From positions 1 to 13,233 of the forward strand of contig CAWJQC010000005.1 of the NCBI GenBank assembly GCA_963844965.1: a stretch of DNA of 13,233 bases, read 5' to 3'. The position numbers were made by a program, and so were the translations under genes. The notes beneath the pieces were generated by a model, which searched no databases, was not told the origin of the DNA, and saw only the letters and a program-made list of their open reading frames with translations. Shown here in pieces: positions 1 through 12,976 of this stretch. The stretch is from an uncultured bacterium (lineage in GTDB: Bacteria; Patescibacteriota; Minisyncoccia; UBA6257; 2-01-FULL-56-20). Each line of letters begins with the position of its first letter. The stretch's first letter is position 1.

Positions 1-1
1 A

Positions 2-1261
2 ACGAAAGAGGAATTGGAAAAATACTTGAAGCTTGTTGAAGAAGCGCAAAAACGCGACCACAGAAAACTGGGTAAACGTCTTGACTTGTTTACTTTTTCA
101 GATATGGTCGGCAGCGGTCTCCCGCTTTGGACACCGAGAGGAGCTCTGGTCCGGGGATTGTTGAATGAATATGTAGAATCGCTACAAGCAAAAGCCGGAT
201 ATACCCAAGTTTGGACGCCGCAGATCGCGAAAGCGGAACTTTTCAAAACATCCGGCCACTACGATAAATACCGGGAAAGCATGTTCCGCGTAAAATCAAA
301 TTACTCCGACGAGGAATTCTTTCTGAAACCCATGAATTGCCCCCAGCACACGCAGTTCTATGCAAGCCAGCCGCGGAGCTACCGCGACTTGCCGCTGCGT
401 TATACCGACTTCGCGATGCTCTACCGCGACGAAAAACCCGGCGAACTGAATGGCCTCGCGCGCGTCAGATCGTTCTCCCAGGATGACTGCCATATTTTCT
501 GCCGCGAAGACCAGGTTGACGAGGAAATTGACGTAGCGCTCGCCATGATAAAGGAAATTATAGGAACTTTCGGCCTCAAGTATCGCTATCGCCTTTCAAC
601 AAGCGACAAGGCGCATCGGGAAAAATATATAGGCGATCCGAAAACGTGGGACAAGCTGGAAAAGTGGGCGGAGGAAATTATGAAACGCAACGGCATTGAA
701 TACTTTGACGGCCCCGGCGAGGCGGCCTTCTACGGACCGAAAATGGACCTCATGGCAACGGATGCTCTTAGCAGGGAGTGGCAGCTCTCAACCGTGCAAA
801 TTGACTTTTTCCTGCCGGAGAGGTTCGGGTTATCGTACATTGACAAGGGAGGAAAAGAAAAACGGCCAGTTATGATCCACCGCGCGATATTGGGCTCGCC
901 CGAACGTTTCATCATGGTGCTTCTGGAGCACTTGGCCGGCGCGCTCCCGCTTTGGCTCGCGCCCACTCAGGCGGAGATCATAAACGTCGGTTCAGACCAA
1001 AGAAAATATGCGGCTAGTATCCACAAACAACTCTCCGACGCCGGCCTGCGCGCGAACCTGAGCGACGAAAATCTTACCGTCGGCAAACGCATCCGCGAAG
1101 CGGAACTTATGAAAATTCCTTACATCCTCGTCGTCGGCGAAAAAGAAGAAAAAAACGGGACGGTTAACGTCCGTCATTATCGCCGCGGGCAGGAGGGAGA
1201 AGTTAAAAGCGAAAAGCTGATTGAAAAGATCAAAAAAGAAATAGAGGATAAGGTCATATAA
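2..1261 (+). CDS. thrS: Threonyl-tRNA synthetase, 5'-truncated by the window edge (catalytic class II core plus anticodon-binding domain)
   Basis: The open frame runs from position 2 with no start codon in the window. The translation contains RDHRKLGKRLDLF, class-II motifs (FRVRSFSQDD.HIF, GPKMD) and a C-terminal anticodon-binding domain (ILVVGEKEE..GTVNVR). TAA stop at 1259-1261. The TTG at 14 in the ORF track is internal, not the true start. Confidence 0.9.
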   Translation, partial: TKEELEKYLKLVEEAQKRDHRKLGKRLDLFTFSDMVGSGLPLWTPRGALVRGLLNEYVESLQAKAGYTQVWTPQIAKAELFKTSGHYDKYRESMFRVKSNYSDEEFFLKPMNCPQHTQFYASQPRSYRDLPLRYTDFAMLYRDEKPGELNGLARVRSFSQDDCHIFCREDQVDEEIDVALAMIKEIIGTFGLKYRYRLSTSDKAHREKYIGDPKTWDKLEKWAEEIMKRNGIEYFDGPGEAAFYGPKMDLMATDALSREWQLSTVQIDFFLPERFGLSYIDKGGKEKRPVMIHRAILGSPERFIMVLLEHLAGALPLWLAPTQAEIINVGSDQRKYAASIHKQLSDAGLRANLSDENLTVGKRIREAELMKIPYILVVGEKEEKNGTVNVRHYRRGQEGEVKSEKLIEKIKKEIEDKVI

Positions 1262-3031: not shown

Positions 3032-4064
3032 ATGGCCTCTGGTCGTTTTGAAATCCAATTCTTCGCGGGACTCCTGCTTTTGTCCGCCGCGCTCATGATT
3101 TTTGTTTTTTATCCATGTCTGAACGCGCTTGTCATCGCCATCGCGCTCGCCGTCATTTTCCATCCCATCTATGCGAGACTGCTACGTCTCATGCCGAAAT
3201 GGGAATGGCTTGCCGCCCTGATTACGGTCATGCTAACCATCGCAGTTATTCTCGTTCCGCTCACGATTTTCGGATTCAAAATCTTCGCGGAAGCACAGGC
3301 TCTTTACACGAGCTTTGCCTCGGGCGACAAAGGACCGCTCCTGGAATTTCTCCACGGCAAACTCGCGGAACTTACGCCCGGACTCAATCTAGACCTGACT
3401 CAATACACCCAGCAAATTCTTTCCGCACTGCTTGGAAACCTGGGATTCGATCTTCTCCAGGATCGTCGGCGTCTTCGGTACTTTCCTGCTGGCGCTTTTC
3501 GCTCTGTATTATCTCCTGAAAGACGGCTTGAAACTGAGAAGGGCAATGGTAAAGATCAGCCCGCTTTCGCCTGAGAATTCAGCCGAAATCGTAAATCGCC
3601 TTCAGACGATGACCGGTTCCGTAATTACGGGAACCGTCGCCATGGCTGTCATACACGGAATTCTCGTCGGCCTTGGATTTCTCTTGTTTGGACTTACAAA
3701 CCCGGTACTCTGGGGATTGGTTGCCGTCGTAGCGGCATTTATACCGATAATTGGAACAGCGCTGGTCGTCATCCCCGGAATATTCTGGCTTGTGCTCACA
3801 CAAAATCTCGCCGGAGCGATCGGTCTCGCGCTTTGGGGAATCCTTATGCTCGGGCTCATAGACAACATCCTCAGGCCGCGTTTAATCGAGCGCCGCTCAA
3901 AAGTCCACCCTCTTCTCGTTCTTCTTTCCGTCATCGGCGGCCTCGCGCTTTTCGGCCCGACCGGATTCCTTCTTGGGCCTCTCGTCTTGAGCTTGTTCCT
4001 TGTGCTTCTTGAAATCTATCCGGCGCTCATACTGAAACGCGGCGACAAAACACGGTCCGTCTAG
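3032..4064 (+). CDS. AI-2E family transporter / PerM-like (UPF0118) permease, with an apparent +1 frameshift near 3446
   Basis: Two overlapping ORFs (3032..3574 frame 2; 3432..4064 frame 0) together give a typical ~340-aa multi-TM AI-2E protein. Frame 1 ends its homology at ..LLGNLG. Frame 2 continues SIFSRIVGVFGTFLLALFALYYLLKDG, the family-conserved segment. Skipping one nucleotide after gga (3443-3445) joins them. TAG stop at 4062-4064. Tightly coupled to miaA (4 nt). Confidence 0.75.
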
Positions 4065-4234
4065 GCAAGTCCATCTTCCCAGACCTAAACAGGCGCCAAG
4101 CGAGCGGAAAACAACAAAAAATGCGTATGGTAAAATAGTAATAGACCCCCCACACCAAACGAGAAGTTTCCCGAATACCGAACGCCGCTTCTCGTTTGAT
4201 ATGAGGGTAAAGGTCGTGAAAAAAATATTTATAT

Positions 4235-4507
4235 ATGGCCAAACAAGTCATTAAGCGCGGGGGGAAACGCGAGCCATTCCGGGCCGAGAAGCTGAGGAAG
4301 TCTGTTCGCGCCGCCTGCAGGGACACCCACATGTCGCCGGTCTGCATAAAAAAGGTAGTAACAAAAGTTGCCGGCCCGGTTCTGCGGTTTGCCGCGAAGC
4401 GGAAGGTGGTCAGGGTAGCGGTGCTCCGGAAAAAAGTTCTCGCCGGACTACGCAAGACGGAACCGGCAGCGGCAAAGGCCTGGCTGCGTTACGAGAGACG
4501 GCACTAA
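4235..4507 (+). CDS. Stand-alone ATP-cone domain protein (90 aa)
   Basis: VIKRGGKREPFRAEKLRKSVRAAC ... AKAWLRYERRH matches the ATP-cone consensus VIKRDGR.EPFD..KI ... Y..YRE.R, the NrdR/RNR N-terminal regulatory domain. No catalytic domain is attached and no SD is present. Confidence 0.75.
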   Translation: MAKQVIKRGGKREPFRAEKLRKSVRAACRDTHMSPVCIKKVVTKVAGPVLRFAAKRKVVRVAVLRKKVLAGLRKTEPAAAKAWLRYERRH

Positions 4508-4557
4508 GCCCAAAAGTGGGGGCAGGTAGTTTCTCTGTGGGTTTGTTTTTCATATTT

Positions 4558-7168: not shown

Positions 7169-8579
7169 CTACTTTAGAGCTTCAGTCAGTAATTTCCTTA
7201 ACTCCTCAGGATTAGCCCGACCTTTCGTTTTCTGCATTATCTGGCCGATGAGAAACTGCAGGCTCGCTGCCTTGCCCTTTTTGTAGTCCTCAACCGCTTT
7301 GGGATTTTTCTCTATGATACTCATTCACGACTCTTTCCAATTCGCTGGTGTCCGAAACCGTTTCCATACCTTCGCTCTTCACGATCTCCTCCGGGTCAAG
7401 GCCAGTTTCAAACATTTTTTTCAGAGCGTCCTTCGCTTGGCGGCTGCCGATTTTTCCCTGCTCAATAAGCGCGACGAGGTGCGCCAGATGTTCCGGTTCC
7501 ACTTTAATATCGGCAAAACCGATGCCGGATTCGTTCATTAGGCCCACAAGGTCGGATGTTAGATAGTTGAAAACCAGAACGGCGTCGCCGTCCGATTTTT
7601 GTTCCCTCAATTCGCTCACGGCTTCCTCAAAATACCCAGCGAGTGCGGGCTCGCCCACCAAGGTATCTGTTCTCTGCACACCCAATCCATATTCTTCTTC
7701 AAACCGCACGCGTTTCACATCCGGCAACTCCGGCAATGCGTCGCGCAGTTTTTCAATATCAAAAACTTTCGTTTCAAACGGCGGCAGGTCCGGCTCCGGG
7801 AAATAGCGGTAGTCGTGCGCCTCTTCTTTTGACCGCTGGCTCACCGTCATCTGTTTCACGTCATCCCAGCCGCGCGTCTCGTGCGCCACCTTTTCGCCCT
7901 TCTCCAAAATTTCCTGCTGGCGCTTAAGTTCATAAGCAATCGCCGCGCCGACTGCTTTGAACGAATTGATGTTCTTCAATTCCGTCTTCGTGCCCATATT
8001 CAAACTCACATTCGCTTCTATGCGCATCTGCCCGCGCTCCATATCAGCGTCCGAGACGCCCAAGTACCTCAAAATTAATTGAAGTTCCCGCGCGAATTTC
8101 ACGACTTCTTCCGCCGATTTCAAGTCCGGTTCGGTTACAAGTTCCATAAGCGGAACGCCCGCGCGGTTGAAGTCAACCAAACTGGAGTTGATTTTATCGT
8201 CATGAACCAATGTTCCCGTGTCCTCCTCCAGATGGACGCGCCTGACGCGCACGCCGTTCAGTTCCCCGCCTGAGACAATCGGCTGGTCGTATTCCGAAAT
8301 CTGGTAGCCCTTCGGCAGGTCGGGATAAAAATAATTTTTGCGGTCAAACTTCGCGACGGGATTGATTTTCCCACCCAAAGCGAGACCGACTTTGATAACC
8401 GACTCCACTGCCTGCATATTTATAACAGGAAGCGTTCCCGGATGACCCAAGCATATTGGGCAAACATTCGTGTTCGGATGCTTCTCGTCCGAGTCGTTCA
8501 GCGAATCGCAGAACATTTTTGTCCGCGTCCTGAGCTCGGCGTGGATTTCTAGACCAATGGTGGGTTTATATTTATCCAT
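7169..8579 (-). CDS. gatB: Asp-tRNA(Asn)/Glu-tRNA(Gln) amidotransferase subunit B, with an apparent +1 frameshift near 7319 separating the catalytic part from the C-terminal YqeY-like tail
   Basis: The 429-aa ORF (7290..8579) is GatB up to ..SELERVVNE. The adjoining frame (7324..7169) encodes IIEKNPKAVEDYKKGKAASLQFLIGQIMQKTKGRANPEELRKLL, the canonical GatB C-terminus (compare IVDEVIANNPQSVEDFKNGK..GFLVGQIMK). Removing one nucleotide joins them as VVNE-IIEKNPKAVEDY with no gap relative to homologs. Confidence 0.85.
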
Positions 8580-8669: not shown

Positions 8670-8697
8670 TTGACGAAAAACAGAAACCGTATAAAAT
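8670..8697 (+). promoter_or_regulatory. Candidate promoter TTGACG-N16-TAAAAT for the bicupin gene
   Basis: -35 at 8670-8675 and -10 at 8692-8697. The ~47-nt leader ends in the AAAGGAG SD, 9 nt before the ATG at 8745. Confidence 0.45.
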
Positions 8698-8744
8698 CCT
8701 ATCAGCATCCCAATCTTGGTTTTGACAGAAAGGAGCTCTGCAAG

Positions 8745-9473
8745 ATGAACAAAATGAACGTCTACGAGGAGCTGCCACTCGTGGCAAATGTCTGCAACCA
8801 ACTTCTGCGCGAGGTTGATAAAACGCCAGCATGGTCCATGGCGCACGTCCTTATGAACCCACGAGCATCGTCGCTGCCCCATCAACACTACAACACGGAG
8901 GAGTTATATATCATAACTCGCGGCACGGGGAATTTGGTCAAGAGGAGCGCTGGAAAGGAGCGGGCGCTCGTCGTAAAACCCGGAGATGTGATCCGAATCC
9001 CGCAATATGCTCACCACAAACTTGAGAATGCGGGAATCGTTAGTTTGGAACATTTGGTTTTAGCCACGCCGCCGTTCAACCCGACAGATGTTTATCTGAT
9101 TAAGGACTGGCGGGATCCCGACACGGCACCACAACCCTTCGTACAACCGCTAGTAACCGATTGTTTTGACGGAGCCAAAATTGTCGCCTACAAATTTCCC
9201 GACACGGCGAGCGTCGCCTTCGGCTGGGTTATGGCCGAAACTTCGCGGCACAAACTACCTCACTACCATAAAGAAATAACAGAACGCATCTTCGTGGTCG
9301 AAGGCGGGGGGTTTATAGAGCTCGAGGGTATTCTCCATGAAATCGTCACCGGCGACTGGCTCACCATAAAGCCGCGCGAAATCCACGCGCTTCGCAACAT
9401 CAACGAACAGCACATGGTCGTTGTCTGCATCTGCACGCCATGCTTCAGCATGGACGACGTATATTATATCTAA
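8745..9473 (+). CDS. Bicupin protein (two metal-binding cupin barrels), possibly a sugar-phosphate isomerase or dioxygenase-type enzyme; specificity unknown
   Basis: Start chosen at ATG 8745 with SD AAAGGAG, not the upstream TTG at 8670. Domain 1: PHQHYNTEELYIITRG ... PGDVIRIPQYAHHKLEN. Domain 2: PHYHKEITERIFVVEGGG ... GDWLTIKPREIHALRN. Both fit cupin motifs G(x)5HxH(x)3-4E(x)6G and PxG..H...N. TAA stop at 9471-9473. Confidence 0.7.
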   Translation: MNKMNVYEELPLVANVCNQLLREVDKTPAWSMAHVLMNPRASSLPHQHYNTEELYIITRGTGNLVKRSAGKERALVVKPGDVIRIPQYAHHKLENAGIVSLEHLVLATPPFNPTDVYLIKDWRDPDTAPQPFVQPLVTDCFDGAKIVAYKFPDTASVAFGWVMAETSRHKLPHYHKEITERIFVVEGGGFIELEGILHEIVTGDWLTIKPREIHALRNINEQHMVVVCICTPCFSMDDVYYI

Positions 9474-9580: not shown

Positions 9581-10424
9581 CTAAACACGCGCTTCAAGAT
9601 TCAGCGCTAATTCGCCAGAATCGACGCGTTCAAGCAGCCGCACGATTGTCGCATACAGTTCGTGCGTTGAGCCGCACCGCCATTCCCAAAGTATTTCGCG
9701 CTCTCCGCGCATTCCTACCGGATACGGATAAGTGGAAGATTCCACGATTATGGGTCGAAAAGTCTGGCAAGAATTTTTGAAGCTGGCCGATGGGTTTCTG
9801 AACACCTTCCGGCACCCACTCCGGCGGCTTGACACCGAACCTGCGCAAATACATTTTCAGCTTGGATGATTTTTCATCGGTGTCCACGTCTCTCGGCGTG
9901 CCGTATCCTTCGAAATACACGACTGCATAGCGCTCCGCGTCAAGCAAGACGATATTGCCGGCAGTCAATGAATCCTTAAGCGGCAATGCCTCATTCACAA
10001 GCGTATGATATTCTTCGTTATATCGCCTGCAAAAGTCCGCAATAAAGTTCCAGTCGTCTTGGTCATAAACAACGGGGAGTTTCGGTGTTTCCTCAAGAAT
10101 ATTCTCCTCCCGATAATTACGCAAAGAAACTCTGCTGTATTTCTTCCAGAAGCTCCTCAGTTCCTCAAGCTTCAATCCACCACGCGGCCAAGATTGAAAA
10201 GCTGGACAGTTGAATCCTGCGTCAACGAGCTGCTGAATCCGGATATTCTTCAGAGGTAAAAGTTGTATCTTCGGGACGACTATGTTTCTTTTACGAAACA
10301 GATTTCCAATAAGATGCCCGAGCGGCGAAGGCCCATCGGCAGCTTTTGTGATATTTATAATGCCGAGCTTCTTCAATATGCGAGCGATTGCTTCGCGCTG
10401 GCTTCCAGTTCGCTTCATATACAC
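9581..10424 (-). CDS. Uncharacterised ~280-aa protein; the C-terminus probably continues in the +1 frame, ending at 9581 rather than 9630
   Basis: Start at ATG 10424 with GGGGGA 6 nt upstream. No family recognised by eye. The ORF-track frame ends in an Arg/Ala-rich tail (GRNARRARNTLGMAVRLNARTVCDNRAAA) that looks like out-of-frame translation. The alternative frame (..GMRGEREILWEWRCGSTHELYATIVRLLERVDSGELALNLEARV) uses ordinary codons and stops 8 nt before the terminator hairpin. The frame switch would be near 9720-9740. Confidence 0.5.
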
Positions 10425-10535: not shown

Positions 10536-10660
10536 TTCCGATAGGAGCATGTGTCCGTTTCCGCATCGTGCGGATTCAGCGACTGGCTCGTTTTACAACT
10601 TAGCCGAACCAGAAGTGTCCATTGATGACTGCTGGCGGTTTCCTGCAAAGGGAGAACGCC

Positions 10661-10978
10661 ATGCAAACGGCCAATATCACGCTTGAACGCGTCCTGCCGA
10701 TTGAGCAAGCTTTTGCGGCGGCACGAGAAGCAGTCCTTGAAAAAGCCGACGGTGAGAATATTTTTTTCTACAAAGACAAAACATTGCAGCTTCAAGATCT
10801 TTATCCGAGAGAACTGAATTCCGCCGCACTTTACCTCTTGGAAGAAAATGTGGCTTTTCAGCGCGAACTGCGGAAATATCTTCTGGAGCGGTATGGAATT
10901 GACACGCTGCGACTATCCGCGGTCGTGCACCTCGGAAACCGAAAAGGGTATCATCGGAATGATTCCCCCTTACGTTGA
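10661..10978 (+). CDS. Hypothetical protein (105 aa); possibly the N-terminal part of a single protein continuing into the ParB/Srx-like ORF
   Basis: ATG 10661 is preceded by AGGGAG with a 6-nt spacer. The upstream TTG/ATG at 10622/10625 lack an SD. No recognisable domain. It ends in a TGA immediately after a C5 run (10965-10969). Confidence 0.5.
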   Translation: MQTANITLERVLPIEQAFAAAREAVLEKADGENIFFYKDKTLQLQDLYPRELNSAALYLLEENVAFQRELRKYLLERYGIDTLRLSAVVHLGNRKGYHRNDSPLR

Positions 10979-11318
10979 AATTTCGGAGGAGTTGGTGAGG
11001 ATCATACCGCTTGACGGAGATCGCGAACCTCCTCCGTCGCAAATACTTAACGTGCCGATTTTGATCGACGGATTGCACCGCGCGGCTCTTGCGGATGAAG
11101 AAAAGATTCCGCTTCGCTGCATCGTCTGTAGCGGAAACTTTGACCGCCGATACCTCTATACCTCTTACGCCGCGCATGGGTCCGAAATAAAGTTATACAA
11201 GAAAGTTCCACCAGTGAAAAAACGTTATAGGCGACAGAAAGAATATTCCTTCATGCGACCACTTGAGGTTTTCCGATTAACAAACGTCGGAGTTGGCGGC
11301 GAGTATGACAGGAAGTAA
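10959..11318 (+). CDS. ParB/Sulfiredoxin-fold (ParB N-terminal-like) domain protein, ~119 aa
   Basis: VEISEELVRIIPLDGDREPP parallels the ParB N-terminal box (I..I.pNP.QPR). ILIDGLHRAALADEEKIPLRCIV parallels the GxxR/GCHR motif region of ParB/Srx (iaGeRRwrAa..g...iP.iV). It overlaps the preceding ORF by 20 nt in the +1 frame. Its stop (11316-11318) sits inside the SD of the next gene. Confidence 0.5.
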   Translation: MIPPYVEISEELVRIIPLDGDREPPPSQILNVPILIDGLHRAALADEEKIPLRCIVCSGNFDRRYLYTSYAAHGSEIKLYKKVPPVKKRYRRQKEYSFMRPLEVFRLTNVGVGGEYDRK

Positions 11319-11329
11319 GGAGTGATTAC

Positions 11330-12454
11330 GTGCCAAAGAAAACGCTTGTGATTATCACCGGTCCTTCTCGCGTCGGTAAAACAACGATCATCGATAAACT
11401 TCTTGAGATTGTGCCATCTTCAGCGCGATTCGTAACAACGACTACGCGGCCACCACGACCCAAAGAACGGGACGGTGTGGACTATTATTTTCGGAGCCGT
11501 GAGGAATTCAAAGCTGGCATAGAGAGCGGCGAGTTTATCGAGTGGGTGGAATCATACGGGCATTTCTATGGAACTTCCAGAATTGAACTTTCGAGACTGA
11601 TGGACAGCAATTCTGTACTGTTTGCCGCTACTGACACTCGCGGAGTCGTCGGCCTCAAGCAGGAATTTCCTCAAGCCGTCACCGTCTTCGTTAGGCCGGG
11701 CTCAATGGAAGAACTGGAAAAACGGATTGCAAACAGTACCGAGTTAACACCCGACTCTATTCAAAAAAGAATGGCTGCGATTACAGATAAAATGCGGCGT
11801 GCCGGCGATTTTGACTACTTAGTTACGAACGCCGAAGGAAAACTCGGCGACGCAGTACAAGCGATATTCAGTATACTCAAAAACCATACCACCTGGCGCA
11901 TCGGCTTTGACCTCGACGGCGTGGTCATAGACCATACCGCGAATAAGATATCTGTTGCCGAAAGATTGGGGATCCGACTCGCTCCGCGAGAGACACCGTC
12001 GAATATCATGAAGATGAAAGTCGACCCGCAGATCTACAGAAAGATCAAAAAAACGATATATGGTGACCTCTCCGTAGAACTGCTAGCCCCGATAATGCTC
12101 GGAGCGGAAAATGTTCTGGCCAAGCTTAAAACGGCAAAATTTCCGCTCTTCCTTATCTCCATAAGACCGACCACCGAAGAACCGATAGCGTGGCTTAAGA
12201 ACCGCGGTTTATGGGAAAAATATTTCGACAGCCAAAATGCATTTTTTGTAAAGGAACGGGTCGAAAAGGATGAAATTGCGCGCAAACTCATGCTGGATAT
12301 TTTTCTTGATGATGAACCGAGTACGCTACGTACAATGCCTTCGGTACCGAAAAAATTTCTTTTCGATCCTTATGGCGTTTACCCGGAAAACCTAGAGTCT
12401 TACGCTGTGGTGTCTGGCTGGAAAGAGTTCGCTGATGTGATTTTGTCTCTATAA
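11330..12454 (+). CDS. Fusion protein: N-terminal guanylate kinase domain plus C-terminal HAD-superfamily NT5C-type 5'(3')-deoxyribonucleotidase-like domain
   Basis: GTG start with SD TAAGGAG 7 nt upstream. Gmk hallmarks: GPSRVGKTT, TTTRPPRPKERDGVDYYF, FIEWVESYGHFYGTSR, FDYLVTNAEGKLGDAV. The C-terminal half shows IGFDLDGVVIDH (HAD motif I), FLDDEP and VVSGWKEF, which parallel NT5C-family nucleotidases (D.DGVL, LIDDnP, vsGW.d). TAA stop. Confidence 0.8.
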   Translation: MPKKTLVIITGPSRVGKTTIIDKLLEIVPSSARFVTTTTRPPRPKERDGVDYYFRSREEFKAGIESGEFIEWVESYGHFYGTSRIELSRLMDSNSVLFAATDTRGVVGLKQEFPQAVTVFVRPGSMEELEKRIANSTELTPDSIQKRMAAITDKMRRAGDFDYLVTNAEGKLGDAVQAIFSILKNHTTWRIGFDLDGVVIDHTANKISVAERLGIRLAPRETPSNIMKMKVDPQIYRKIKKTIYGDLSVELLAPIMLGAENVLAKLKTAKFPLFLISIRPTTEEPIAWLKNRGLWEKYFDSQNAFFVKERVEKDEIARKLMLDIFLDDEPSTLRTMPSVPKKFLFDPYGVYPENLESYAVVSGWKEFADVILSL

Positions 12455-12462
12455 AAATTGAG

Positions 12463-12500
12463 AATAAAAAATGCCCCCTTCAAGATGGGGCATTTATTTT
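12463..12500. terminator. Bidirectional rho-independent terminator (AATAAAAA-ATGCCCC-9 nt-GGGGCAT-TTATTTT) between convergent genes
   Basis: 7-bp GC stem at 12471-12477 and 12487-12493, flanked by an A-run upstream and a T-run downstream. It lies 9 nt after the fusion-gene stop and 14 nt after the minus-strand DNPH1-like stop. Confidence 0.65.
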
Positions 12501-12514
12501 CCCAAAATTCTTTT

Positions 12515-12976
12515 CTACGCCAATCTCTTTAGCAATTCCTCGGGCGTGGAAACGACTTCATGGATAAGTTTGTGGCTGGAGGGCTCTTCGTACAAATCGT
12601 TGGGATAACTTCCCATCAGCGTTTTCGGATGCAGGGCATAGCACATTTTTCCGGCCATGGCCGCGGCGAAAAGTTCACCGTTCGTGTTCGCACCAAGATA
12701 GCCGTCCTTGTTGAAAATAAAACAAACGTCGGCGACGCGCACTTTGCGGAAAAGATGGTCGTACACTTTTCCCGCGACAGTTTCGCGGTAATTCGCGTCA
12801 GCGGCGAGCCGGTCCTTCTCGTGAAGCTGTTCAAATCCCATCGGCCGCTCTTCAAAATTCGGCTCCAATATGACGGGATGCAATCCTTTTTCCGCGGCAA
12901 GTTTGCGCAGCTCGGCTATGAATTCGGCCAAATCTTTTTTAAAACGGACACTCGTGCAAAAAACGACGGATTTCAT
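12515..12976 (-). CDS. DNPH1/Rcl-like 2'-deoxynucleoside 5'-phosphate N-hydrolase / nucleoside 2-deoxyribosyltransferase-fold protein (153 aa)
   Basis: The N-terminus KSVVFCTSVRF parallels DNPH1 (YFCGSIRGG). The core ADVCFIFNKDGYLGANTNGELFAAAMAGKMCYAL matches the NDT/DNPH1 motif (sDavvA.ld....GTafElGyA.A.gKPv). TAG stop at 12515-12517. Confidence 0.7.
   Translation of the reverse strand: MKSVVFCTSVRFKKDLAEFIAELRKLAAEKGLHPVILEPNFEERPMGFEQLHEKDRLAADANYRETVAGKVYDHLFRKVRVADVCFIFNKDGYLGANTNGELFAAAMAGKMCYALHPKTLMGSYPNDLYEEPSSHKLIHEVVSTPEELLKRLA

What the first reader, a model, noticed from the sequence alone, without database searches (positions are those of the whole stretch)
11330..12454. Guanylate kinase fused to a 5'(3')-deoxyribonucleotidase-like HAD domain: a kinase and a phosphatase for (d)NMPs in one polypeptide
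The N-terminal ~190 residues carry every Gmk signature, and the C-terminal ~180 residues carry NT5C/HAD motifs starting at DLDGVVIDH. A nucleotide kinase and a nucleotide phosphatase in one chain would be a futile cycle unless the domains have diverged substrate specificity (for example GMP versus a damaged or modified dNMP) or are reciprocally regulated. As far as I know this is not the usual architecture for gmk.
Basis: partly seen in the sequence, partly recalled or inferred. Interest (0 to 1): 0.55.

Follow-up and report, generated by a model that had tools for sequence, protein, structure and literature searches.

The report
Guanylate kinase fused to HAD nucleotidase
A tiny symbiotic-type bacterium (Patescibacteria) encodes one protein that joins a guanylate kinase to an NT5C-like phosphatase, a combination found nowhere else in billions of sequences; it appears to be a one-off version of a kinase-plus-phosphatase gene partnership that is common in these bacteria and whose function is unknown.

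Summary
Confirmed. ORF 11330-12454 (+), 374 aa, is one frame: a guanylate kinase (res 4-184; Pfam E 9e-35, passes the TIGR03263 cutoff), a ~6-residue linker, then a HAD phosphatase (res 191-374). An independent 907-bp assembly is identical across the junction. That matters because this contig has at least 3 homopolymer frameshifts elsewhere.

All four HAD motifs are intact. The HAD model (pLDDT 96.7) is closest to NT5C enzymes, but the domain is below Pfam's NT5C cutoff, so it is NT5C-like, not a proven member.

All GMP ligands of the kinase are kept. The invariant P-loop Gly is Arg (0/145 homologues) and one LID Arg is Ser. This mirrors the type I / type II thymidylate kinase swap and suggests compensation.

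No other Gmk+HAD fusion of this family turned up in 1.84 billion representatives or 125 loci. The HAD family is mostly Patescibacterial and standalone. It sits next to a TMPK-like P-loop gene in 12/19 loci and is fused to AAA_33 kinases in 3 clusters. A ParB-CE gene recurs beside it, also here.

The 'futile cycle' framing is wrong. An NMP kinase and a nucleotidase compete for one NMP, which is a branch point.

Best reading: a bifunctional (d)GMP-node enzyme. The biochemistry is untested. New variant of a known kind; moderate interest.

The parts
11317..11322 (+). Shine-Dalgarno AAGGAG, 7 nt before the GTG start; it overlaps the TAA stop (11316-11318) of the upstream ParB-CE-like gene
   Evidence: Read directly from the sequence
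11330..12454 (+). Whole fusion ORF, 374 aa, GTG start, TAA stop
   Evidence: The same protein is on record as P0394
11339..11881 (+). Guanylate kinase domain (residues 4-184)
   Evidence: PF00625 E 8.7e-35; TIGR03263 161.1 bits vs cutoff 160.45; solved Gmk structures at E 1e-29 to 1e-24
11360..11386 (+). P-loop GPSRVGKTT (residues 11-19). R14 (codon 11369-11371) replaces a Gly that is invariant in Gmk
   Evidence: Gly in 69/69 and 74/76 homologues; Arg in 0/145. Same P-loop position as the catalytic Arg of type I TMP kinase, GVDRAGKS (PMC3169407)
11735..11737 (+). S136 in the LID, where Gmk homologues have Arg (yeast R135 by my own count of the Guk1 sequence)
   Evidence: Arg in 62/69 and 62/76 homologues. 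R132 and R147 are retained
11882..11899 (+). Linker NHTTWR between the domains; the A5 homopolymer lies at 11880-11884
   Evidence: Identical in the independent contig L130
11900..12451 (+). NT5C-like HAD phosphatase domain (residues 191-374) with a four-helix C1 cap
11909..11923 (+). HAD motif I, D194-L-D196-G-V198 (nucleophile and Asp+2)
   Evidence: D9 and D11 are invariant in the 107-member family alignment A4
12158..12160 (+). HAD motif II, Ser277
   Evidence: At least 90% conserved in A4
12266..12268 (+). HAD motif III, Lys313
   Evidence: Invariant in A4
12308..12313 (+). HAD motif IV, D327-D328
   Evidence: At least 90% conserved in A4
12471..12500 (.). Hairpin ATGCCCC/GGGGCAT followed by a T-tract, between the convergent fusion gene and the 153-aa ORF; probable bidirectional terminator
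   Evidence: -16 kcal/mol, z -2.75
10622..11318 (+). ParB-CE-family gene, frame-broken near 10926-10965 (C5 run), ending 11 nt before the fusion ORF; probable operon partner
   Evidence: As split, ORF 10622-10978 scores 20.5 bits. After a 1-nt repair the 231-aa product scores 26.6 bits against a cutoff of 23. It carries an IDGLHR motif. L003's neighbour of a standalone HAD gene is the same Pfam family (27.4 bits)

Best explanation
SHOWN. The gene is a real single ORF in a Patescibacteria (Paceibacterota/Liptonbacteria-like) contig. It encodes an N-terminal guanylate kinase and a C-terminal NT5C-like, C1-capped HAD phosphatase. All residues needed for HAD catalysis are present, and so are all residues that bind GMP. 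The HAD family is widespread in Patescibacteria and is repeatedly coupled to P-loop nucleotide-type kinases. The coupling is by divergent adjacency to an AAA_28/TMPK-like gene, by N-terminal fusion to AAA_33 kinases, and here by fusion to Gmk. A ParB-CE-family gene is a second recurrent neighbour.

INFERRED. (1) Both domains are active. In the kinase, the catalytic arginine normally supplied by the LID (Ser136 here) has moved to the P-loop (Arg14), as in type I versus type II thymidylate kinases. (2) The protein works at the (d)GMP node of a salvage-dependent cell. The kinase domain commits canonical GMP/dGMP to the diphosphate pool. The nucleotidase domain removes phosphate from nucleoside monophosphates that are surplus or that the kinase rejects, for example non-canonical ones. 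This is a branch-point triage, not a futile cycle. (3) Fusion fixes the two activities at 1:1 and co-localises them. In this genome the Gmk domain fills the 'kinase slot' of the conserved kinase + HAD (+ ParB-CE) module.
For: Reality of the fusion: one frame, no stop, and no internal start within 38 codons. An independent assembly is identical across the junction. The sister fusions P0131, P0202 and P0226 have the same kinase-N / HAD-C order with similarly short linkers.

Kinase: PF00625 and TIGR03263 are passed. T36, R40, R43, E46, Y52, E71, Y80, T82, D102, K17, R132 and R147 are all kept. G14R together with R136S matches the TMPK type I/II precedent at the same P-loop position (PMC3169407).

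Partnership: 12 of 19 loci have a divergent AAA_28/TMPK-like gene upstream of the HAD gene. Three representatives are AAA_33-HAD fusions. ParB-CE neighbours occur in L003, L010, L013 and L018 and in the window.

Context: CPR bacteria often cannot synthesise nucleotides (PMC7304191). The close relatives have Tmk, NUDIX and a Cmk-like kinase in the same neighbourhood. NT5C enzymes regulate nucleotide pools together with kinases (PMC3706368).

Against: The Gmk domain also departs from strongly conserved positions other than G14 and R136: S34F, D100A, E154K and P124G. Its TIGR03263 score clears the cutoff by only 0.65 bits. Activity is therefore not assured.

The fusion is a singleton. Close relatives (GatB 77% identical) lack Gmk, HAD and ParB-CE at this locus, so there is no evidence of selection for the fused state.

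The contig has at least 3 frameshifts, and the independent contig has its own 1-nt deletion inside gmk. Either the data are noisy or the genes are decaying.

Whether a second, canonical gmk exists in the genome cannot be seen from a 13-kb contig.
Confidence: 0.45

Rival explanations
1. Sequencing artefact. gmk and the HAD gene are really two genes, and an indel error, for example in the A5 run at the junction, merged them.
For: The contig carries frameshifts in GatB (~7320, T5), the 285-aa-family ORF (~9780, T5), the AI-2E transporter (~3450) and the ParB-CE gene (~10926-10965, C5). So homopolymer indels are frequent, and the junction has an A5 run.
Against: I enumerated all 525 single-base indels over 11800-11905. 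No deletion gives the HAD part a canonical start. Insertions give starts only 32-36 codons upstream in another frame, which means a ~100-nt out-of-frame overlap with gmk and a non-homologous leader. Only 4 specific insertions create a start de novo. Standalone homologues start 8-11 residues before IGFDLDG. The independent Logan assembly has the identical junction. Kinase-HAD fusions with the same order exist independently.
Confidence: 0.08
2. One half is a pseudo-enzyme. The Gmk domain is catalytically dead (G14R, R136S, D100A, E154K) and serves as a guanine-nucleotide sensor or scaffold that regulates the HAD phosphatase. The reverse is also conceivable.
For: There are several substitutions at columns that are at least 88% conserved in Gmk. 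The equivalog score is borderline. Eukaryotic MAGUK GK domains are a precedent for non-catalytic Gmk folds that still bind ligands; they appear among the PDB hits.
Against: The Walker Lys/Thr, all GMP-binding residues and two of the three LID arginines are intact. MAGUK GK domains, by contrast, have lost the P-loop (own knowledge). The G14R + R136S pair has a known functional precedent in TMP kinases. All HAD catalytic residues are intact.
Confidence: 0.15
3. Sequential pathway instead of competing reactions. The HAD domain acts as a 3'(2')-phosphatase on scavenged nucleotides such as guanosine 3',5'-bisphosphate (pGp) or 3'-phosphorylated RNA breakdown products. It releases 5'-GMP, which the attached kinase converts to GDP. 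This would be a small-molecule analogue of T4 Pnkp logic.
For: The order, kinase at the N-terminus and HAD at the C-terminus, is the same as in T4 Pnkp (own knowledge). It recurs with AAA_33 kinases, and one weak hit of P0131 is to bacterial Pnkp (TIGR04075, E 0.002). NT5C enzymes are 5'(3')-nucleotidases by name and accept 3'-phosphates (own knowledge). Fusing consecutive steps is the commonest reason for enzyme fusions.
Against: There is no direct evidence on substrate. The P0131-Pnkp hit is one of 15 equally weak P-loop hits. The HAD has a C1 cap, unlike the capless Pnkp phosphatase. Most family members are paired with a TMPK-like kinase, not a G-specific one.
Confidence: 0.12
4. Incidental, possibly decaying fusion. 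Two neighbouring accessory genes were joined by a small deletion in a variable genomic region, with no selected functional coupling, and the locus may be eroding.
For: It is a singleton. It lies in a stretch that differs among close relatives. The adjacent ParB-CE gene is frame-broken. The independent contig carries a frameshift inside gmk. Both domains are only about 40-48% identical to their nearest relatives, while the flanking genes are 70-86% identical.
Against: Essential GatB is frame-broken too, so the frameshifts are better explained by sequencing error than by decay. All catalytic residues of both domains are retained. The RBS and terminator are intact. The same HAD family has been fused to kinases at least twice independently and is adjacent to kinases in 12/19 loci, which argues for functional coupling.
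Confidence: 0.15

Closest known systems
Bacterial guanylate kinase (Gmk; TIGR03263 / PF00625; e.g. PDB 7u5f, 1znw, 2an9, 2j41)
   Same: Full-length Gmk fold match (E about 1e-29 to solved Gmks). The Walker Lys/Thr, GMP-binding residues (T36, R40, R43, E46, Y52, E71, Y80, T82, D102) and LID R132 and R147 are conserved.
   Different: It carries a C-terminal HAD domain. P-loop Gly14 is Arg (0/145 homologues). LID Arg136 is Ser. It also has S34F, D100A and E154K. Identity to any known Gmk is only about 40-44%.
NT5C family 5'(3')-deoxyribonucleotidases (PF06941; human/mouse cdN and mdN, PDB 2jao, 1q92, 1mh9, 6g2n; S. epidermidis 3bwv)
   Different: Sequence identity is 14-19%. The window's domain is below the Pfam gathering score. 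His202 stands where NT5C has the Phe that follows motif I (DMDGVLADF; own knowledge of mdN). The substrate is unknown.
Type I thymidylate kinases (human, yeast)
   Same: Arg at P-loop position 4 (GxxRxGK[ST]) together with absence of the corresponding LID Arg (PMC3169407).
   Different: A different NMP-kinase family. No Gmk with this arrangement is known to me or was found here (0/145).
T4 polynucleotide kinase-phosphatase (Pnkp)
   Same: One chain with an N-terminal P-loop kinase and a C-terminal DxDxT/V HAD phosphatase (own knowledge).
   Different: The Pnkp phosphatase is capless and acts on polynucleotide 3' ends, and its kinase is not a Gmk. Here the HAD has a C1 cap typical of small-molecule phosphatases.
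Uncharacterised AAA_33-HAD fusion proteins (P0131, P0202, P0226) and standalone HAD + divergent AAA_28/TMPK-like gene pairs in Patescibacteria
   Same: Same HAD family (E 1e-34 to 1e-54 to the family profile). Same kinase-N / HAD-C order and a short linker.
   Different: The kinase partner belongs to a different P-loop family with no similarity beyond the Walker A motif.

Membership tests
Guanylate kinase (TIGR03263 / PF00625) | Profile score above the curated cutoff | tested here: met
   PF00625 120.5 bits vs 25.2. TIGR03263 161.1 vs 160.45, which is borderline
Guanylate kinase (TIGR03263 / PF00625) | GMP-binding residues (yeast S34, R38, R41, E44, Y50, E69, Y78, S80, D100) | tested here: met
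   T36, R40, R43, E46, Y52, E71, Y80, T82, D102. Thr in place of Ser34 occurs in 10 of 145 homologues
Guanylate kinase (TIGR03263 / PF00625) | P-loop G-x-S-G-x-G-K-[ST] | tested here: not met
   The window has GPSRVGKT. The Walker Lys and Thr are present, but the fourth-position Gly (143/145) is Arg
Guanylate kinase (TIGR03263 / PF00625) | Three LID-region arginines (yeast R131, R135, R146) | tested here: not met
   R132 and R147 are present. The middle one is Ser136, where 124/145 homologues have Arg
Guanylate kinase (TIGR03263 / PF00625) | ATP:GMP phosphotransferase activity | not testable with these tools
   Needs an enzyme assay or complementation
HAD superfamily phosphatase | Motifs I-IV (DxDx[TV], S/T, K, DD) on a Rossmannoid core | tested here: met
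   D194, D196, V198, S277, K313, D327, D328. Confident HAD fold
NT5C 5'(3')-deoxyribonucleotidase (PF06941) | Pfam gathering score | tested here: not met
   18.3 bits for the domain alone, 15.9 in the full protein, against a cutoff of 24.8. Relatives P0202 (42.9), P0121 (29.4) and P0244 (27.1) do pass
NT5C 5'(3')-deoxyribonucleotidase (PF06941) | Closest fold, with a four-helix C1 cap | tested here: met
NT5C 5'(3')-deoxyribonucleotidase (PF06941) | (Deoxy)nucleoside monophosphate as substrate | not testable with these tools
   No member of this subfamily has been characterised. Gene neighbourhood (kinases of TMPK, AAA_33 and Gmk type) is only suggestive
T4 Pnkp-like kinase-phosphatase | P-loop kinase at the N-terminus and HAD phosphatase at the C-terminus in one chain | tested here: met
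T4 Pnkp-like kinase-phosphatase | Capless (C0) HAD that admits polynucleotide ends; PNK-type kinase | tested here: not met
   The model has a ~55-residue four-helix cap. The kinase is a Gmk

The most novel reading that the evidence does not exclude
Patescibacteria possess a previously unrecognised three-part nucleotide-processing module: a ParB-CE protein, an interchangeable P-loop kinase, and an NT5C-like HAD phosphatase. Its kinase slot can be filled by unrelated kinases (TMPK-like, AAA_33, or Gmk as here). In this genome the module runs a sequential 'phosphate-editing' route on scavenged guanine nucleotides. The HAD removes a 3'(2') or otherwise misplaced phosphate, and the attached Gmk then makes GDP. 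The Gmk uses a P-loop arginine in place of the LID arginine, a catalytic layout not known in guanylate kinases.
Probability: 0.12. Interest if true: 0.7.

Novelty: new variant of a known kind. Interest (0 to 1): 0.5.

Why it matters
Organisms of the Candidate Phyla Radiation generally cannot make nucleotides and must process scavenged ones, yet how they manage their nucleotide pools is poorly known. This gene is a natural 'Rosetta stone'. It links an uncharacterised HAD family, widespread in Patescibacteria, to nucleotide-monophosphate kinases and so gives that family a testable function.

It also offers what would be the first guanylate kinase with the catalytic arginine moved from the LID to the P-loop. 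That would extend the type I / type II distinction known for thymidylate kinases to a second NMP-kinase family.

Both points can be tested directly with one recombinant protein and a few point mutants. The limits are that the fusion is a singleton on an error-prone metagenomic contig and that nothing here shows the two activities are kinetically coupled.

Tried and rejected
1. Full-length structure model. Two mixed alignments (A3; A8, with duplicated query anchors) put the Gmk rows onto HAD columns (9-18% identity), so I dropped the full-length prediction and modelled only the HAD domain.
2. AFDB50 fold search as an architecture census: the library was not available.
The shallow alignment A7 gave pLDDT 42.6, which is unusable. 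phmmer against the PDB, Pfam, NCBIfam, PHROGs and PADLOC gave nothing. My guess that it is nucleoside-deoxyribosyltransferase-like remains unsupported.
4. Defence-system idea for the ParB-CE / kinase / HAD trio: PADLOC gave only weak P-loop hits. Rejected for lack of evidence.
5. Phage origin: no relative of the HAD family in IMG/VR; only a weak hit to phrog_420, of unknown function.
6. Literature search for 'ParB-CE' returned only ParB-Cerulean and ParB-centromere papers. A search for Gmk-HAD fusions found nothing relevant.
7. Local profile of the AAA_28/TMPK-like neighbour against all window ORFs: no homologue in the window. So the window has no second kinase of that type, and ORF 9630-10424 is not one. 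It is a frame-broken homologue of a 285-aa protein of unknown function in relative L126.
8. Fusion partners of distant HAD relatives (GT4 in L027, VKOR in L024, unknown ~500-aa proteins) say nothing about nucleotides.
9. Exact look-up of the window's proteins in the contig index failed for the fusion and for GatB. The cluster look-up showed both are on record.
10. The kinase domain of P0131 against the PDB gave only generic P-loop kinase hits.
Full report
OBSERVATION. An AAGGAG Shine-Dalgarno sequence lies 7 nt upstream and overlaps the stop codon of the preceding gene. A stable hairpin followed by a T-tract (12471-12500; -16 kcal/mol, z = -2.75) separates it from a convergent gene. Residues 4-184 match Pfam Guanylate_kin (E 8.7e-35). 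They also match NCBIfam's guanylate kinase equivalog TIGR03263 (161.1 bits, cutoff 160.45) and some 25 solved guanylate kinases (E 1e-29 to 1e-21). Residues 186-374 give only sub-threshold Pfam hits to NT5C (15.9 bits in the full protein, 18.3 bits alone, cutoff 24.8). They do have clear homologues of their own.

IS THE FUSION REAL? This needed care. The window turned out to be an entire deposited 13,233-bp metagenomic contig (GatB self-hit P0274), and it is visibly frame-damaged. GatB switches frame at ~7320, and its last 49 residues continue in another frame at 84% identity to a relative. A 285-aa-family ORF switches at ~9780, the AI-2E transporter at ~3450, and the ParB-like gene near 10926-10965. 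Several of these sites are 5-base homopolymers, and the junction contains an A5 run (11880-11884). Three results argue against an artefact.

(i) Gmk homology runs to residue ~184 and HAD homology starts at ~190, in the same frame, with no stop and no ATG/GTG/TTG for 38 codons upstream of F193, the residue before motif I.

(ii) I enumerated all 525 single-base indels across 11800-11905. No deletion gives the HAD part a canonical start. Insertions give starts only 32-36 codons upstream in a different frame, which would mean a ~100-nt out-of-frame overlap with gmk. Only four specific insertions create a start de novo. Standalone homologues begin 8-11 residues before the IGFDLDG motif.

(iii) An independent Logan assembly of run ERR10755942 (L130, 907 bp) is identical to the window from 11068 to 11975, including the A5 run and the whole junction. 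The only differences are a 1-nt deletion at 11593 and one SNP at 11651.

I put the artefact probability at about 8%. What remains is a read-level error shared by both assemblies.

THE KINASE HALF. I compared it with 69 + 76 Gmk homologues. The Walker Lys/Thr are present. So is every GMP ligand: T36, R40, R43, E46, Y52, E71, Y80, T82 and D102. By my own count of the yeast Guk1 sequence these correspond to S34, R38, R41, E44, Y50, E69, Y78, S80 and D100. LID arginines R132 and R147 are also present. Two things are not canonical. The P-loop reads GPSRVGKT, with Arg14 where Gly occurs in 143 of 145 homologues and Arg in none. The middle LID arginine (Arg in 124 of 145) is Ser136. There is an exact precedent for this pairing in another NMP kinase family. 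Type I thymidylate kinases (human GVDRAGKS) carry the catalytic Arg at this same P-loop position. Type II enzymes have Gly there and supply the Arg from the LID (PMC3169407, citing Lavie 1998). I therefore read G14R + R136S as a compensated relocation, not as inactivation. This is inference. The further departures (S34F, D100A, E154K, P124G) and the borderline equivalog score keep a pseudo-enzyme reading alive at ~15%.

HOW UNUSUAL IS THE ARCHITECTURE? No other Gmk + this-HAD fusion was found in any of these sets:
- the 290 significant hits to the whole protein, where every one of the 120 listed covers at most ~60% of the query, through the Gmk half;
- the best 150 of the exhaustive HAD search;
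- 47 HAD loci from GTDB species genomes and metagenomes, none with gmk within ~4 kb;
- 78 gmk loci from JGI metagenomes, none with the HAD;
- viral contigs.
Fusions of Gmk with other HAD families were not surveyed, because AFDB50 was unavailable.

The HAD family is overwhelmingly Patescibacterial: Yanofsky-, Lloyd-, Harrison- and Niyogibacteria and the Parcubacteria group. It keeps company with P-loop kinases in three ways.

(1) In 12 of 19 non-redundant loci, the gene upstream and divergent from the HAD gene encodes a ~240-aa P-loop protein. It is directly adjacent in 10 loci and has one gene in between in 2. It matches AAA_28 above threshold (29-33 bits against 27) and weakly matches thymidylate kinase and dNK (Pfam, PHROGs, NCBIfam). 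In L019 it is fused to a CYTH domain.

(2) Three cluster representatives (P0131, P0202, P0226) are fusions of an AAA_33 kinase (N-terminal) to this HAD (C-terminal) with a short linker. Their kinases form one family that is unrelated, beyond Walker A, to Gmk or to the AAA_28 neighbours.

(3) The window has Gmk in the same N-terminal position.

A second recurrent neighbour is a ~230-aa ParB/Srx-like protein with a DGxHR motif, found in L003, L010, L013 and L018. L003's copy passes Pfam ParB-CE (27.4 bits). In the window, the two overlapping ORFs at 10622-11318 become a single 231-aa ParB-CE protein (26.6 bits against a cutoff of 23) once one base is removed. That gene ends 11 nt before the fusion ORF. 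Its similarity to the other ParB-like neighbours is collinear but very weak (5-6 bits), so this link is tentative.

The window therefore contains all three recurring parts, with Gmk in the 'kinase slot'.

GENOMIC SETTING. GatB places the organism among Paceibacterota/Liptonbacteria-like Patescibacteria (73-81% identity to named MAGs). Close relatives share the order ThrRS, MiaA, M29 peptidase, Ser-hydrolase, GatB. They also share a highly conserved 152/153-aa ORF (82-86% identical) that lies next to NUDIX and thymidylate kinase. Between that ORF and GatB, however, they carry different genes: no Gmk, HAD, ParB-CE or cupin. One relative has an archaeal-type (d)CMP-kinase-like gene in the same slot and orientation (TIGR02173, 90.3 bits, below the 102.1 cutoff). 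So the fusion sits in a variable stretch of a nucleotide-metabolism neighbourhood. Both of its domains are only ~40-48% identical to anything known, whereas the flanking genes are 70-86% identical to the relatives' copies. The 13-kb contig cannot show whether the fusion is the cell's only gmk.

MECHANISM. The 'futile cycle' concern does not apply. Gmk converts GMP to GDP, while a 5'-nucleotidase converts GMP to guanosine. The two share a substrate, and neither reverses the other. Classical nucleotide substrate cycles pair a nucleotidase with a nucleoside kinase (PMC3706368).

My best-supported model has confidence ~0.45 as a whole, and ~0.75 for the narrower claim of a real fusion with both domains probably active. 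It is a bifunctional enzyme at the (d)GMP branch point of a salvage-dependent cell; CPR bacteria often lack nucleotide synthesis (PMC7304191). The kinase commits canonical GMP/dGMP. The NT5C-like domain dephosphorylates monophosphates that are surplus or that the kinase rejects. The fusion enforces co-expression and proximity.

The rivals are:
- a sequential route in which the HAD is a 3'(2')-phosphatase feeding 5'-GMP to the kinase, Pnkp-like logic (0.12);
- one domain being a pseudo-enzyme or sensor (0.15);
- an incidental or decaying fusion (0.15);
- a sequencing artefact (0.08).

NOVELTY AND SCORE. Both domains are known kinds, and kinase-HAD chains are known (T4 Pnkp). The Gmk + NT5C-like combination appears to be new, as does a guanylate kinase with a P-loop arginine. 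The conserved kinase / HAD / ParB-CE neighbourhood in Patescibacteria appears undescribed as well. I rate it a new variant of a known kind, interest 0.5. It is a real and testable oddity that gives a handle on an uncharacterised CPR enzyme family. Against that, it is a singleton on a noisy contig with no functional data.

Noticed in passing
window 7172-8579 (-), break near 7320: GatB is frame-broken. Residues 3-444 of a relative's GatB align in one frame (8570-7326) and residues 447-495 in another (7318-7172, 84% identity). The break lies by a T5 run. An essential gene being broken suggests sequencing error, not decay.
   Followed up: yes
window 3032-4064 (+), break near 3445-3465: The AI-2E family transporter is split into two overlapping ORFs (3032-3574 and 3432-4064) that match profile positions 2-131 and 135-326. 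This is a frameshift.
   Followed up: partly
window 9584-10424 (-), break near 9780: An ORF with no Pfam hit is a frame-broken homologue (45% identity) of a 285-aa protein of unknown function next to GatB in relative L126. It is inverted relative to GatB compared with that relative.
   Followed up: partly
window 12515-12976 (-): A 153-aa ORF convergent with the fusion is 82-86% identical in relatives whose GatB is only ~77% identical. In those relatives it lies next to NUDIX and thymidylate kinase, and L126 has a 41%-identical paralogue there. No hit in Pfam, NCBIfam, PHROGs, PADLOC or the PDB, and the AF2 model failed (pLDDT 42.6). A very conserved protein of unknown function in a nucleotide-metabolism neighbourhood.
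   Followed up: partly
window 1-1261 (+): The contig starts inside a threonyl-tRNA synthetase gene: the ORF aligns to residues 220-637 of the relative's ThrRS. The window is the entire deposited contig of 13,233 bp.
   Followed up: yes
L130 (Logan ERR10755942), equivalent to window 11593 and 11651: The independent contig has a 1-nt deletion inside gmk (not in a homopolymer) that truncates the protein at residue 89, plus one G>A difference. This is either strain variation, real inactivation in part of the population, or read error.
   Followed up: partly
L019:2617-3909 (-): The TMPK/AAA_28-like P-loop neighbour of the HAD gene is fused to a C-terminal CYTH (triphosphate tunnel metalloenzyme) domain in a Parcubacteria MAG. 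This is another hint that the module handles nucleotides or polyphosphates.
   Followed up: no
L007:3302-3892 and 3971-4555 (+): Two tandem paralogues of the HAD gene in a Lloydbacteria MAG, still next to the divergent P-loop gene.
   Followed up: no
P0129 (352 aa); L027:3971-5647; L024:3980-4999: Other fusion partners of this or related HAD domains: a phosphoglucomutase/phosphomannomutase domain I fragment (P0129), a GT4 glycosyltransferase (L027), and a VKOR membrane domain (L024). They show that distant relatives of the family are not restricted to nucleotide contexts.
   Followed up: partly
L126:13752-15353 (-) versus window ~3032-4500: Between the M29 peptidase and MiaA, the close relative carries a reverse transcriptase (RVT_1, group II intron-like) and an ATP-cone protein, where the window has the AI-2E transporter. 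This is a second variable spot in otherwise conserved synteny.
   Followed up: no
window 8670-9473 (+): A 267-aa bicupin-like protein (two Cupin_2 stretches) lies between GatB and the fusion module. It has no counterpart in the relatives' loci.
   Followed up: no
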